Source: Eledone cirrhosa
Lineage: Eukaryota
Length of the DNA: 64,000 bases
NCBI GenBank assembly: GCA_964016885.1
Contig: OZ024741.1
Span: 121,892,001 to 121,956,000, forward strand
Direction: 5' to 3'
Shown piece by piece: positions 678-31,407 of the stretch (position 1 is its first letter; each line of letters begins with the position of its first letter). Below the pieces are notes generated by a model that was given only the letters and a program-made list of their open reading frames with translations, did no database searches and was not told the origin of the DNA. A program made the translations under genes and the position numbers.

Positions 678-733
678 TACTATGATCATTTCAATGACCG
701 GGTTCAGTATGAATCCGGTGACATCATCAGGTA
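678..733 (-). ncRNA. Minimal type-I hammerhead ribozyme motif (Penelope-like pLTR)
   Basis: Minus strand: UAC-CUGAUGA-uguc[accggauuca uac ugaacccggu]cauu-GAAA-UGAUCA-UA^GUA. Palindromic helix III AUGAUCAU, 3-bp helix I. Confidence 0.7.
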
Positions 734-1308
734 ATTCAAAATATAACAAAGGCATATAACAGATAAAATCCATGGGGCTGAAAATCAGAGACAAGAGGAC
801 GACCGACTATTTAGCAGCTTCTACTTCTGTCGGCCGCCCTCAAGTTGTGAGGGCGGCCGACAGAGGTAGAAGACGGGTACTTTTCTAGTATATATACATA
901 TATACATGTACACACAAACTCACTCACACGCAGGTACACACACACACACACAGACACACACACATATATATATATATACATACATATATATATATATATA
1001 TATATATATATATATTTATATATATATATATGTATGTATATATATATGTATATATATATATGTATATATATATATATATATATATATATATATATATATA
1101 TATATATATATATATATATATATATATATATATATATATATATATAAATATATTTCGTTGACAAATATATCAATATGCCCAGACATATAGATATATTGCC
1201 CTTGGTATGACAGTGTGGTTTTAGCTCAATATAGGATAACTAGTATACTACAGAGCCGTTATAGTTATAGGAATAACCAAAGAGTGCTTAGAGATACATT
1301 TTTTTATT

Positions 1309-1355
1309 AGCTAACAGTGTTTCATCCATACACCATGCCAGGAATCCTCAGAGCC
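1309..1355 (-). ncRNA. Minimal hammerhead ribozyme motif
   Basis: Minus: GGCU-CUGAGGA-uucc...ggau-GAAA-CACUG-UU^AGCU. Helix I GGCU/AGCU. Confidence 0.55.
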
Positions 1356-2550
1356 TATAAACATGAGTATATCAGTAGTTGCATGCTCCATCGAGCTGCT
1401 TCACCAGAACAAGGTTAAATGACCAGCATGGGGTCCCGAGGCCAGCGCTATATGGAAAAAGACAGATTATATGATGCACATAATGTCATAAAATGTCTTA
1501 AAAGTTTAAAAATAAAAAATTTAAAAATTACACCAAAAATGTATCACTTAAATGGTGCAATAGATGCTAAAGAGATTGGGAGAGGGTAGCAAGGGATGAG
1601 TGAGGGTAATACTCAGCATGATCAGAAACAATAAGAAAATAATAAAAAAATAATAATAATAAAGTATAAAAATAAAGTACAAAAAAACCACGTGGCGGAA
1701 ATATAAATAACATAGCTGTCATTGACAGGTTTGGTTGTGAGTTATCCCTTCTATATATATCTATATATTCTACAGAAATTTGCACTCACTATAATAAACC
1801 CGCCTATTATTATAACAATATATGCTCATTCTGCCATATGTAATTCTGGAAGCGGAGTTTCCTGTATACACTTTTTCTCTATATGTAACGGGATTGCCAT
1901 CACAACTTGTATTTACTGTGGTACAGTTGTATGCGGTGCGATACATTGGTTGAACGCCAACTTGGGCATACAGTGAATTTCACCTGACACGTTGGATTGA
2001 GCGACCAAATGTTTTCAATTTCCTCACATCTGTGCCGGCTGTATATGTGCCATACATCTCTTTAACTCGTCGTACTTTCTTTTATTTTTTATTGTAGATT
2101 TTAGGTGTATATCCCAGACCGCCTATGGTGATAAATCCCCTGGGTATAGGTTTTGGAAAAATAGTGTTATTTCACTTAACGTTCGGAACTGGAACATATC
2201 GATGTGGTTCGTAGGGTGCGGATATGATAAGGAGAATCGACCTGTTACAAGGCGATATAATTGGAGTACACCATCCCTCATATGGACTATCATAAATGTA
2301 AGGCTGCACCACTGCTAACCAACTATTCTTTTCACAGATTCATGTTAACAAACTCTCTTGATCTGCCTGTACACCCTCTTTTTGCACTGCTTGTGCTCTG
2401 ATGCATCTATGCTTTGCTTTGTCTTATATTTTTTTTTTTTGGGGGGGGGGGGTTCTGGGCTTTTTGTTCCTTTACTGTTTTGTATTTTTATATTTATCTC
2501 TTTTCTTATCCCTGTATTTTGGTACGTTCAACAATCTGGCAGGAAGGTAT

Positions 2551-2593
2551 ACGTTGCTGACGATAGCTAATAAGCTTGAAACTAGTACAGCGT
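2551..2593 (+). ncRNA. Minimal hammerhead ribozyme motif
   Basis: ACGUUG-CUGACGA-u[agcu aaua agcu]u-GAAA-CUAG-UA^CAGCGU. 6-bp helix I, palindromic helix III ACUAGU. Confidence 0.75.
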
Positions 2594-3372
2594 TCCTTTG
2601 TCAGTGTTGAACAAACGAGCAACGATGGTTGCTAGACACTACGGCTTAATACGGGATGTTTGTTTACAAACACACCGAGCATTATAATAAATGTTCGGTG
2701 AATCCATACGTACATATATATATGTGTGCATGTATGTATATATATATACATACTACTGTACGTCTGTATACATATATGTATGTACGTGTACATACTTATA
2801 TTTAAGTAACAGCCGTACTAAGAATGGGAAATGAAATTTCGTTTCATTTTTTTCCGTTTATATATATATATATATATATATATATATATATATATATATA
2901 TATATATATATATATATATATATATGTACACTCATATATTTTTCAAAATATACATTGATCCATAAATAAATACATCATTTTTATAAAAGGCATTAAATGA
3001 ACTAGGAAATATTTGTGTGATTTTGTTCACAATAATAAAATTACTTTTATCTTTTCTTACAAACAAAACTGTTAACTAATGAGGTATGTGCCAACAGGTG
3101 CGTAATAAGGTAATTAATATGATAATTTATTACGATTATTTATATAATGAATGATATGGTAATTAAGCGATATTCATAGCAAATTGGAATAATCGTATAA
3201 ATAGATGGGATGACTGTCTGATCTTTGAAAACTATATATATCTGAAGAGTTCATGTAGGGCAGCTGTTATACAACTACCATACGTCTTCGAAATACTTAT
3301 AACAAAATAAATAGGGATTAATAAATGAAATAAATTTCTTGTTTATTATTATTATTATTATTATTATTATTA

Positions 3373-30154: not shown

Positions 30155-30245
30155 ATAATGCAAATATATCTACATAATAGATATGAAGCAACAGTTAAAC
30201 ATCTCGAAAACAATTTTATCAAAGAACGACCCGTGAAAATAACGG

Positions 30246-30297
30246 CGGGACATATTCTGTTTCTGTAAACCTAACTTGCAGCATGCTTCATCAGCCA
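30246..30297 (-). ncRNA. Hammerhead ribozyme motif (weaker helices)
   Basis: Minus: UGG-CUGAUGA-agcaugc...uuuaca-GAAA-CAGAAUAUG-UC^CCG. Confidence 0.45.
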
Positions 30298-31120
30298 GCT
30301 TCCACAAATGAAGTAGTGGGAAGTACACAATGCTACCTTGTACGCCCAACCGTTTATTATAATTAGGGATAAGGTTATCAAATAGTTAGCACGGTCAAAA
30401 GTACTGTGAATTCCTCTGTTTCGTGCTATCAGCCGATTTATTTTATCTAAAAGTCGCCACCCGAAACTGGTTTCGAGCGTACATACAAACATATATGCCT
30501 ACATACATACATACATACATACATACATACATACATACATACATACATACAAACAAACATATATGCCTACATACATACATACATACAAACATACATGCCT
30601 ACATACATACATACATACATACATACATACATACATACATACATACATACATACATACATACATACAAACATATATGCCTACATACATACATACAAACAA
30701 ATATGCCTACATACATACATATAATACATATATATACATATGTACATACAATGTATATATATATGTATGGGGCTATAGTAGAAGACACGACAGATACGAC
30801 GCAGTGTAAATGAACCTGAAATCACTTGGTTGTGAATCGAACTGCTCAACGACAAACCTATACTTATGTTTTCTCGGCCAATATAAATAAATACACAAAC
30901 ACACACACACACACACACATATATATATATATATATACATATATATATATATATATATATATATATATATATATATATATATATATATATATATATATAT
31001 ATACATATACTTAGGGTAAATATTGATGCAATTCAATTCAAGCACTCAACGTACTTTTTCCACATAGGAGTGACGGAGTAAATATCGAATAAGGAAAAGC
31101 GAAGTAGTTTCAGATGTTCA

Positions 31121-31175
31121 AGTCTGATGAGAGGGGGAACTGACTAAGCGAATTTCGTTGAAATCTGCGGTAGCT
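31121..31175 (+). ncRNA. Hammerhead ribozyme motif (weak helix II)
   Basis: AGU-CUGAUGA-gagggggaac...auuucguu-GAAA-UCUGCGG-UA^GCU. Confidence 0.45.
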
Positions 31176-31333
31176 AATGGTCAACTTCCTTCGGACATGC
31201 GCCTGCGCAGACCAGTGGGGGTGAATTGGTAATCACATGGGAACGGATGAAGAACCCAAAAGCACACATTTCGTCCGTTCCCATGTCGATTCAATTTGGA
31301 TTGCCTCGGAAACATAACCTTATTATGTAACAA

Positions 31334-31407
31334 GCTGTCTGACGATGTCGCGACACTCGCACACAGAACAGTGTGGCCAGTGTCGTCATTGAAATATATA
31401 TCACAGC
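31334..31407 (+). ncRNA. Hammerhead ribozyme motif, (UA)n helix III type
   Basis: GCUGU-CUGACGA-ugucg[cgacacu..cacac..gugug..agugucg]ucauu-GAAA-UAUAUA-UC^ACAGC. Confidence 0.8.

What the first reader, a model, noticed from the sequence alone, without database searches (positions are those of the whole stretch)
678..31407. Candidate new hammerhead subtype: mismatch-rich helix II base and (UA)n helix III
Seen: the motifs at 678, 16998, 29665 and 31334 (and the relic at 3241) are otherwise unrelated, yet share CUGANGA-(ugUC/ggUU/gcUC/guUC)-[stable hairpin]-(CAUU/CACC/CUUC)-GAAA. This places a weakly paired roughly 4x4 segment ending in a pyrimidine-C mismatch where the canonical G10.1-C11.1 helix start should be. 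Three of them have helix III = AUAUAUAU, the same sequence as the flanking target microsatellite. Inference: this may be a distinct structural class that standard models would miss. Its helix III could let different families heterodimerise, or could pair with (UA)n/(TA)n.
Basis: partly seen in the sequence, partly recalled or inferred. Interest (0 to 1): 0.75.

Follow-up and report, generated by a model that had tools for sequence, protein, structure and literature searches.

The report
Retrotransposon hammerheads with fixed C·C mismatch
Five hammerhead-shaped RNA motifs are the tail ends of high-copy Penelope-like jumping genes, and about 69,000 copies in this animal genome keep one unpaired C·C spot in an otherwise freely changing stem, making them a distinctive variant of a known, likely self-cutting RNA rather than a new class.

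Summary
All five motifs are real type I hammerheads near the 3' ends of five high-copy Penelope-like element (PLE) families in (TA)n. Three families (3241, 16998, 29665) carry Hydra-clade endonucleases upstream; two (678, 31334) are non-coding tandem units. The "weak 4x4 loop" is partly decay: family copies show G10.1-C11.1 at 16998, 29665 and probably 3241. U10.1·U11.1 is genuine at 678 and 31334 (13,023 genome matches) but is already published. The invariant feature is helix II = 3 pairs, C10.4·C11.4, then a longer stem: 69,287 of 77,263 cores, with covariation on both sides. None of 26 published Hydra hammerheads has it. Helix III is a covarying palindrome for dimer formation, not captured microsatellite; (UA)n cannot be a substrate. 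Heterodimers are predicted only for families that also share helix I (16998 with 31334). New here: an AAUAAA-type hexamer 4-12 nt after the predicted cut in 7 of 9 families. Rfam misses these and also a canonical PLE hammerhead. Cleavage is untested, and Lünse 2017 could not be read. The scan noted this mismatch before in the same genome. Verdict: new variant of a known kind.

The parts
625..845 (-). 3' fragment of family A, a ~2.05 kb non-coding PLE-like unit; ends at (TA)n 603-631
669..738 (-). Hammerhead A: core 730-689; helix II base U·U, G·U, U-A, C·C; helix III AUGAUCAU 689-682; predicted cut between 681 and 680; AAUAAA at 676-671
3241..3355 (+). 3' fragment of family B (Hydra-clade parent), truncated exactly at the core so the 5' arm of helix I is lost; core 3242-3293; predicted cut 3301/3302; AAUAAA 3306-3311; decayed copy
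16946..17154 (-). 3' fragment of family C (Hydra-clade parent); core 17051-17011; family helix II base G-C, G-C, U-A, C·C (window copy has a private G10.2>C change and a helix I change); helix III AUAUAUAU; predicted cut between 17003 and 17002; (TA)n 16906-16945
29628..29765 (+). 3' fragment of family D (Hydra-clade parent); core 29670-29707; family helix II base G-C, G·U, U-A, C·C (window copy has C10.4>U and C11.1>U); helix III AUAUAUAU; predicted cut 29715/29716; AAUAAA 29722-29727
31011..31124 (-). Inverted, 5'-truncated copy of the family E 3' end with the long tail, abutting (TA)n 30919-31009
31126..31412 (+). 3' fragment of family E (~1.3 kb non-coding unit); core 31339-31394; helix II base U·U, G·U, U-A, C·C; helix III AUAUAUAU; predicted cut 31402/31403
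31413..31601 (+). SINE-like repeat inserted into the E tail about 10 nt after the predicted cut
31596..31645 (+). Remainder of the family E 3' end, followed by (TA)n 31645-31698

Best explanation
These are type I, palindromic-helix-III hammerhead motifs at the 3' ends of (TA)n-inserted Penelope-like elements of a Hydra-clade lineage, sharing a helix II of three pairs, an invariant C10.4·C11.4 mismatch and a longer stem, and they likely self-cleave as dimers, probably with help from the element's own protein. Shown: anatomy, family membership, covariation, Hydra-type endonuclease upstream of families B, C and D, partial-tandem and inverted arrangement, and element ends at two fixed distances (about 50-56 and 133-140 nt) beyond the predicted cut. 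Inferred: a read-through transcript of a partial tandem carries two copies; their helix III palindromes pair; each CUGANGA/GAAA core cuts the partner strand after UA or UC and releases unit-length RNA; reverse transcription starts internally downstream of the ribozyme, as shown for another PLE. Inferred: the C·C is kept as a shape mark at the level where loop II begins in canonical 4-bp hammerheads, most likely a docking site for the A-rich strand beyond helix I or for the RT-EN protein. Families A and E would be non-autonomous units moved in trans by Hydra proteins.
For: 69,287 of 77,263 genome cores with helix III UAURUAUA have C10.4, C11.4 and Y11.1; reversed-pattern controls 0 and 178. In 23 distinct helix II bases, position 4 is paired 0/23 (C·C 20, C·U 2, U·C 1), while positions 1-3 and 5-7 are paired 128/138 against 94 +/- 3.6 in shuffles. 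In 15 hand-picked family representatives, 15 of 18 pairs change on both sides, 0/500 shuffles are as high, and slid registers pair only 25-52%. Of 25 Hydra-type endonuclease ends, 12 have a hammerhead 0.6-2.0 kb downstream and 11 of those are C·C (5 of the 12 have a TA run between). Hydra diagnostics (DKT, CxCX5C, CxxC, CxH, GLYRDD-type RT) are seen and compared by eye with Craig et al. 2021. Monomer helix III probability is <=0.01 in 10 of 10 representatives; homodimer helices give -4.6 to -15.0 kcal/mol. Frangione et al. 2024 report a protein-assisted PLE hammerhead and two internal RT start sites.
Against: No cleavage or expression data were obtained. For A and E the energy model prefers an inactive register in which G8/A9 pair with the 3' strand of helix II (P of pairs 10.1-10.3 <=0.04), and B is weak too (about 0.12). 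Of the window copies only E folds clearly better than shuffles (z -3.1; others -0.1 to -1.5). Families are related, so covariation counts are not independent events. Loci were mostly fetched through C·C families, so one search shows that C·C families have Hydra parents, not that all Hydra elements have C·C. A and E have no ORF remnant, so their clade is inferred. A small subfamily with A·A at 10.3 appears in the list. In PAc, cleavage was dispensable for insertion in vitro and no RNA-seq ends were found at the cut site.
Confidence: 0.72

Rival explanations
1. The motif is kept mainly as a folded protein-binding signal that positions the start of reverse transcription about 50 nt downstream; cleavage is weak or dispensable, and the C·C is the protein contact.
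For: The distance from predicted cut to element end is nearly constant across families (modes 48-56 nt), and 0 of 255 copies have (TA)5 within 10 nt of the cut. PAc catalytic mutants still insert in vitro. 10.1·11.1 varies freely (G-C, A-U, G·U, U·U).
Against: The catalytic core, the A15.1-U16.1 pair (15/15), H17 and the helix III palindrome with compensatory changes are all conserved, which is expected for catalysis and dimer formation.
Confidence: 0.13
2. The C·C is an inherited, nearly neutral quirk of one expanded lineage in this genome, with no special role.
For: All families come from one genome and share other letters (A15.1-U15.2, AU-rich arms). Isolated position-4 mismatches occur in 2 of 56 published PLE rows (U·U in Clonorchis, C·A in Strongylocentrotus). 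No convincing member outside this genome among 34 metagenome and 31 viral pattern hits (best 25.8 bits against 35.7-66.3 for the window five).
Against: Every neighbouring pair has changed on both sides while C10.4 is unchanged in 15/15 representatives. More distant families keep a pyrimidine-pyrimidine mismatch at the same place (C·U, U·C, U·U).
Confidence: 0.1
3. One reading: a new class with a weak 4x4 loop in place of G10.1-C11.1, whose (UA)n helix III pairs with (UA)n/(TA)n and lets any families heterodimerise.
For: U·U/G·U at the helix base is genuine in A and E (13,023 genome matches, control 69). AUAUAUAU is the commonest helix III. C/E, D/F and G/H/I heterodimers are predicted to be as stable as homodimers.
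Against: Consensus G-C closure in C and D and probably B. Helix III is also AUGAUCAU, AUACGUAU, AUGCGCAU and AUAUGUAU. (UA)n forms 0 helix I pairs with 10 of 10 families; D with C or E forms only one of two helix I; A pairs only with itself. Insertion junctions lie about 50 nt past helix III. PAc RT starts at RNA sites not homologous to the target.
Confidence: 0.05

Closest known systems
Hammerheads of Hydra-clade PLEs (Craig et al. 2021, PMC8557442, File S2; 26 Hydra rows read)
   Same: Type I, near the 3' end, (TA)n targets, mostly no extra nucleotide after A9, palindromic 7-8 nt helix III, and 10.1·11.1 either G-C/G·U or U·U (U·U in 14 of 26 rows by my count).
   Different: 0 of 26 rows has C·C at 10.4·11.4. 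Published helix II is short and paired (3-7 bp); here it spans 20-46 nt. Published helix III begins AC; here it begins AU.
Minimal PLE hammerheads (Cervera and de la Pena 2014, PMC4209133; main text parts 1-2 of 4, supplement parts 1-2 of 3)
   Same: PLE repeats, dimer-dependent palindromic helix III (AUAUAU in Drosophila Penelope), long helix II, inverted pairs 100-700 bp apart, A/U-rich flanks, low in vitro activity.
   Different: Their consensus has an unpaired base between A9 and a conserved G10.1-C11.1. Here there is no extra base, 10.1·11.1 varies and the C·C is fixed.
Natural hammerheads with U10.1·U11.1 (Perreault et al. 2011, PMC3088659, section 8; axolotl HHR_Amex2, PMC7229834, passage)
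   Same: U·U at the base of helix II is known in nature and is the best tolerated mismatch.
   Different: Those texts, as far as read, describe no second fixed mismatch at position 4.
Poseidon PAc hammerhead of Anolis (Frangione et al. 2024, PMC11167929, passages)
   Same: PLE hammerhead upstream of two RT start sites that define a tail; two end classes are seen here too.
   Different: Different PLE clade; tail here is about 77-90 nt. Protein-assisted cleavage is shown there and untested here.
Small PLE-associated hammerhead variants that cleave as dimers (Lünse, Weinberg and Breaker, RNA Biol 14:1499; title seen in a reference list; text not held)
   Same: By title: PLE-associated, dimer-cleaving small variants.
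   Different: Unknown; it may already describe this helix II variant.

Membership tests
Hammerhead ribozyme, type I | Core CUGANGA / GAAA / UH around three helices, open at helix I | tested here: met
   invariant core, helix I 96% paired with changes on both sides in 5 of 5 pairs
Hammerhead ribozyme, type I | G10.1-C11.1 closing pair | tested here: inconclusive
   G-C in family copies of C and D; U·U in A and E; A-U and G·U in others. Not obligatory per PMC3088659 section 8
Hammerhead ribozyme, type I | Site-specific self-cleavage | not testable with these tools
   needs a bench assay
Hammerhead ribozyme, type I | Loop I-loop II tertiary contact of canonical hammerheads | tested here: inconclusive
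   helix II is extended and its loop is not conserved; no recognisable contact; C·C and the A-rich 3' strand are candidates only
Rfam hammerhead families | Score at or above the gathering threshold | tested here: not met
   0 hits in the window; no hammerhead hit at E<=10 for 4 of the 5 motifs tested singly; the canonical control at 40902 is also missed
PLE minimal hammerhead (Cervera 2014 consensus) | Palindromic helix III, unstable as a monomer | tested here: met
   five different palindromes; monomer pair probability <=0.01
PLE minimal hammerhead (Cervera 2014 consensus) | Extra unpaired nucleotide between A9 and G10.1 | tested here: not met
   register 0 is supported by covariation; slid registers pair 25-29% at +/-1
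Hydra-clade PLE | C-terminal GIY-YIG with CxCX5C linker, CxxC and CxH motifs, no CCHH | tested here: met
   families B, C, D and the AGGC/AAGC families; not applicable to A and E, which have no ORF
Hydra-clade PLE | RT with DKT motif and Hydra-type core | tested here: met
   KDHK..F, MGSSDS, GLYRDD-type motifs in L177/L181; DKT in the related ORF of L075 (58% identical to L177; not itself linked to a C·C hammerhead); compared by eye with File S4
Hydra-clade PLE | RWK motif and placement in an RT phylogeny | not tested
   no reference proteins were available as data; fetched ORFs are 5'-truncated
Hydra-clade PLE | Insertion in (TA)n; partial tandem or inverted structure | tested here: met
   161 of 255 copies have (TA)5 within 150 nt against 25% background; tandems and inversions
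Non-LTR retrozymes (short tandem repeats with canonical type I hammerhead) | Tandem arrays of ~150-400 bp monomers with canonical loop I-II contacts | tested here: not met
   units of A and E are about 2.05 and 1.3 kb, dispersed, mostly 5'-truncated

The most novel reading that the evidence does not exclude
The 3-bp + C·C helix II and the AAUAAA-type strand just past the scissile bond form one new module. The A-rich strand docks on the C·C to replace the loop-loop contact, and folding hides a poly(A) signal while cleavage cuts it off, so the ribozyme switches the element's RNA between polyadenylated message and unit-length transposition template. Non-autonomous family E shares helices I and III with autonomous family C and could be processed through cross-family dimers.
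Probability: 0.12. Interest if true: 0.75.

Novelty: new variant of a known kind. Interest (0 to 1): 0.42.

Why it matters
The role of PLE hammerheads, and how they become active without the usual loop-loop contact, is open. A position that stays unpaired in about 90% of 77,000 cores while its neighbours covary gives a precise site to mutate. The result also shows tens of thousands of hammerheads in one genome that Rfam does not detect, and that natural helix II bases tolerate A-U, G·U and U·U at the position usually treated as conserved G-C. If the adjacent AAUAAA is a working poly(A) signal, it would link ribozyme cleavage to 3'-end processing of a retrotransposon.

Tried and rejected
Decay as the whole explanation: rejected, because C·C and (in A, E) U·U are family states. 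4x4 loop as a family state: rejected for B, C, D. Alternative register with an extra base after A9: rejected by covariation. Helix III as captured microsatellite, or (UA)n as substrate: rejected. Link to the RT ORF at 3517-6114: rejected; it is an RT with a C-terminal CCHC and restriction-like motif inserted in (TAA)n within the B tail (the R4/Dong label is recalled). Link of A, C or E to the neighbouring Neptune-like ORFs in L131, L137, L138, L146: rejected; that element has its own G-C-closed hammerhead 190-285 nt after its ORF in 6 of 9 ends. ORF remnants in the A and E units: none by tblastn. Members outside this genome: 34 metagenome and 31 viral pattern hits, none convincing; one metagenome sequence (L228/L233, 25.8 bits, helix I 1 bp) is ambiguous; these collections hold little animal DNA. 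RNA evidence: no RNA holder listed. One search used a faulty helix III match and was redone. The whole-window Rfam E-value list was cut at 150 of 305 rows, none a hammerhead. Lünse et al. was not held under its DOI or PMC id.
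Full report
OBSERVATION. The five motifs are present as written. Each reads 5' arm - CUGANGA - helix II - GAAA - palindrome - UH - 3' arm, a type I hammerhead. A generic core pattern gives 18 window matches against 2.5 expected. The window lies in a 3.0 Gb genome of 1,796 contigs; 'octopus-like' is the wording of earlier scan notes and was not tested here. Each motif belongs to a repeat family, with 1085 (A, 678), 365 (B, 3241), 2196 (C, 16998), 227 (D, 29665) and 712 (E, 31334) first-look candidates, of which 40 each were scored.

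DECAY OR FAMILY STATE. Best-hit copies are biased towards the query, so I also took copies fetched by upstream sequence only (counted). A, 18 copies in 12 of 15 loci: U·U 17, G·U 18, U-A 18, C·C 18. E, 23 copies in 14 of 15 loci: U·U 21, G·U 21, U-A 18, C·C 21. D, 20 copies in 20 of 20 loci: G-C 17, G·U 19, U-A 20, C·C 18. C, 12 copies in 12 of 20 loci: G-C 6 (others scattered), G-C 8, U-A 12, C·C 10. For B the best-hit alignment of 28 rows gives GAAC/CUUY, that is G-C or G·U, A-U, A-U, C·C, although the query read GUUC. So the window's GUUC, GCUC and GGUU are private mutations and the 4x4 loop shrinks to one mismatch. U10.1·U11.1 is real in A and E.

THE CONSERVED FEATURE. Of 77,263 genome matches to core + 22-52 nt + GAAA-UAURUAUA (reversed control 178), 69,287 (89.7%) also have C10.4, C11.4 and a pyrimidine at 11.1 (control 0). 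This pattern leaves out families with other helix III sequences (A, B, J). A U·U plus C·C pattern has 13,023 matches (control 69). From 175 distinct hammerhead-shaped hits in the fetched loci I kept clusters with an 8-nt AU..AU helix III and dropped one internally deleted copy (L216), leaving 23 distinct helix II bases. Position 1: A-U 8, G·U 5, U·U 5, G-C 4, U·G 1. Position 2: 23/23 paired. Position 3: 22/23 paired, with U-A, A-U and G-C. Position 4: 0/23 paired (C·C 20, C·U 2, U·C 1). Positions 5-7: 21-22/23 paired. Many of these loci were fetched through C·C families, so the genome counts, not this table, are the unbiased measure. On 15 hand-picked representatives, 15 of 18 pairs change on both sides, no shuffle of 500 reaches the covariation score, and slid registers pair 25-52% against 89.6%. 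The families are related, so these are not independent events. A covariance model from that alignment finds the five window motifs at 35.7-66.3 bits and nothing else above 17 bits; their families were in the training set.

WHAT CARRIES THEM. Copies share a fixed 3' end, are variably 5'-truncated and often form inverted pairs. Upstream of B, C and D lie C-terminal GIY-YIG frames with CxCX5C, CxxC and CxH motifs, the Hydra diagnostics in Craig et al. 2021 (section 11). Related families have RT frames whose motifs match that paper's Hydra proteins by eye. Of 25 Hydra-type endonuclease ends, 12 have a downstream hammerhead and 11 of these are C·C; 5 of the 12 have a TA run in between and 13 ends gave none. 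A (about 2.05 kb) and E (about 1.3 kb) show no ORF remnant and occur as partial tandems joined without (TA)n; their assignment to Hydra is inferred from the hammerhead type. A second PLE lineage in the window (40047-41179) has a standard extra-base, G-C-closed hammerhead, seen 190-285 nt after 6 of its 9 ORF ends.

HELIX III, DIMERS AND (UA)n. Helix III is AUAUAUAU, AUAUGUAU, AUGAUCAU, AUACGUAU or AUGCGCAU: self-complementarity is conserved, not the microsatellite sequence. It is internal: 0 of 255 copies have (TA)5 within 10 nt of the predicted cut, 161 have it within 150 nt (background 1234 of 5000), with modes at 48-56 and 133-140 nt. Two end classes match the two RT start sites and tail reported for the Anolis PAc element, whose RT start is not homologous to the target (passages). 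In a double hammerhead both helix I and helix III are intermolecular (established model). Energies for 10 representatives: C/E -14.6 against homodimers -15.0 and -14.2 kcal/mol; D/F -14.7; G/H/I about -6.5; D with C or E forms one helix I of two; A pairs only with itself. (UA)n pairs with helix III (8/8 in seven representatives) but forms 0 helix I pairs with all 10, so it could at most compete.

POLY(A)-LIKE HEXAMER. In 7 of 9 family majorities AAUAAA or AUUAAA starts 4-12 nt after the predicted cut, against 0.87 expected from shuffled tails; the other two have AAUACA and AAUAUA at offset 4. The families are related, the largest group merges several subfamilies, and in some the hexamer is part of the A-rich 3' arm of helix I, so the test overstates independence. 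Cervera 2014 already notes AU-rich 3' flanks. One search for this link returned only a review, whose two mentions I did not read. It is a lead, not a result.

AGAINST THE MODEL. No cleavage was tested. The energy model puts A and E, and largely B, in inactive registers that use core bases. Only E among the window copies folds clearly better than shuffles. In PAc, cleavage needed protein and was dispensable for insertion in vitro. No convincing member was found in metagenome or viral contigs, which hold little animal DNA.

RFAM. No family reaches its gathering score in the window. Four motifs scanned singly give no hammerhead hit at E<=10 (3241 was not scanned singly). The G-C-closed control at 40902 is missed too, so the miss reflects PLE hammerheads generally.

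LITERATURE. Read: PMC4209133 main text parts 1-2 of 4 and supplement parts 1-2 of 3; PMC8557442 passages, section 11, supplement parts 1-2 of 59 and searches in it; PMC3088659 passages and section 8; PMC11167929, PMC7229834 and PMC6765202 passages; bioRxiv 10.64898/2026.07.22.740005 part 1 of 5. U10.1·U11.1 is published for natural hammerheads and stands in 14 of 26 Hydra rows of Craig's File S2; 0 of 26 has C·C at position 4 (my count). Ten full-text searches returned no paper that, in the listing or in the parts I read, describes a conserved C·C in PLE hammerheads. Lünse et al., the most likely prior source, was not held, and figures and unread supplement parts may bear on novelty. Earlier notes of this scan report the same mismatch and long-armed Hydra hammerheads on other pieces of this genome and in one other genome; the protein-docking reading of the mismatch is taken from one of them and remains untested.

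VERDICT. Works like, and by all testable features is, a dimer-type PLE hammerhead of the Hydra kind. It is a new variant defined by one fixed C·C, variable 10.1·11.1 and a long helix II, not a 4x4-loop class. Interest 0.42.

Noticed in passing
window 3373-6054 (-), ORF 3517-6114: 865-aa frame with RVT_1, a C-terminal CCHC and a restriction-like endonuclease motif, flanked by (TAA)n on both sides and inserted in the family B tail; resembles an R4/Dong-type non-LTR element (label recalled).
   Followed up: partly
window 40047-41179: Inverted pair of 3' ends of a PLE with a C-terminal CX2-5CxxC/CCHH-type GIY-YIG (Neptune-like, by eye; long ORF in L138). Its hammerheads at 40301-40273 and 40902-40930 have the standard extra base plus G-C closure, so two PLE lineages in one genome use different helix II designs.
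   Followed up: partly
window 39288-39228 (-) and 39622-39682 (+): Inverted pair of hammerheads with a 50-nt helix II: three pairs, then a pyrimidine-rich internal loop; helix III ACCGUCGGU.
   Followed up: no
window 20243-20182 and 20787-20726 (-): Two direct copies 544 bp apart of a hammerhead with C·A at 10.1·11.1, a 51-nt helix II and helix III ACUAAUUAGU; a natural tandem suited to dimer tests.
   Followed up: no
window 31413-31601 and family E copies: A SINE-like repeat inserts repeatedly 10-25 nt after the family E predicted cut: 19 of 66 E copies (overlapping loci not removed) have SINE words within 130 nt.
   Followed up: partly
window 29766-29880: Short rearranged family A piece (inverted 3' end lacking the core joined to the unit's 5' part) directly after the D fragment.
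   Followed up: no
window 51214-53160: Inverted pair with Hydra-type endonuclease remnants and no hammerhead found downstream by my scan.
   Followed up: no
window 7375-14248: LINE-like RT (RVT_1 at 8147-10279) with zf-RVT domains at 10348-11136 and 13670-14248.
   Followed up: no
window 21664-26729: 5 kb tandem array of a 13-bp unit, about 390 copies.
   Followed up: no
L008:1700, L024:526, L030:148, L107:989: Single-copy sightings of long-armed hammerheads (47-61 nt helix II; helix III mostly ACANNUGU) with U·C, C·U or U·U at position 4, suggesting the mismatch is older than the C·C families.
   Followed up: partly
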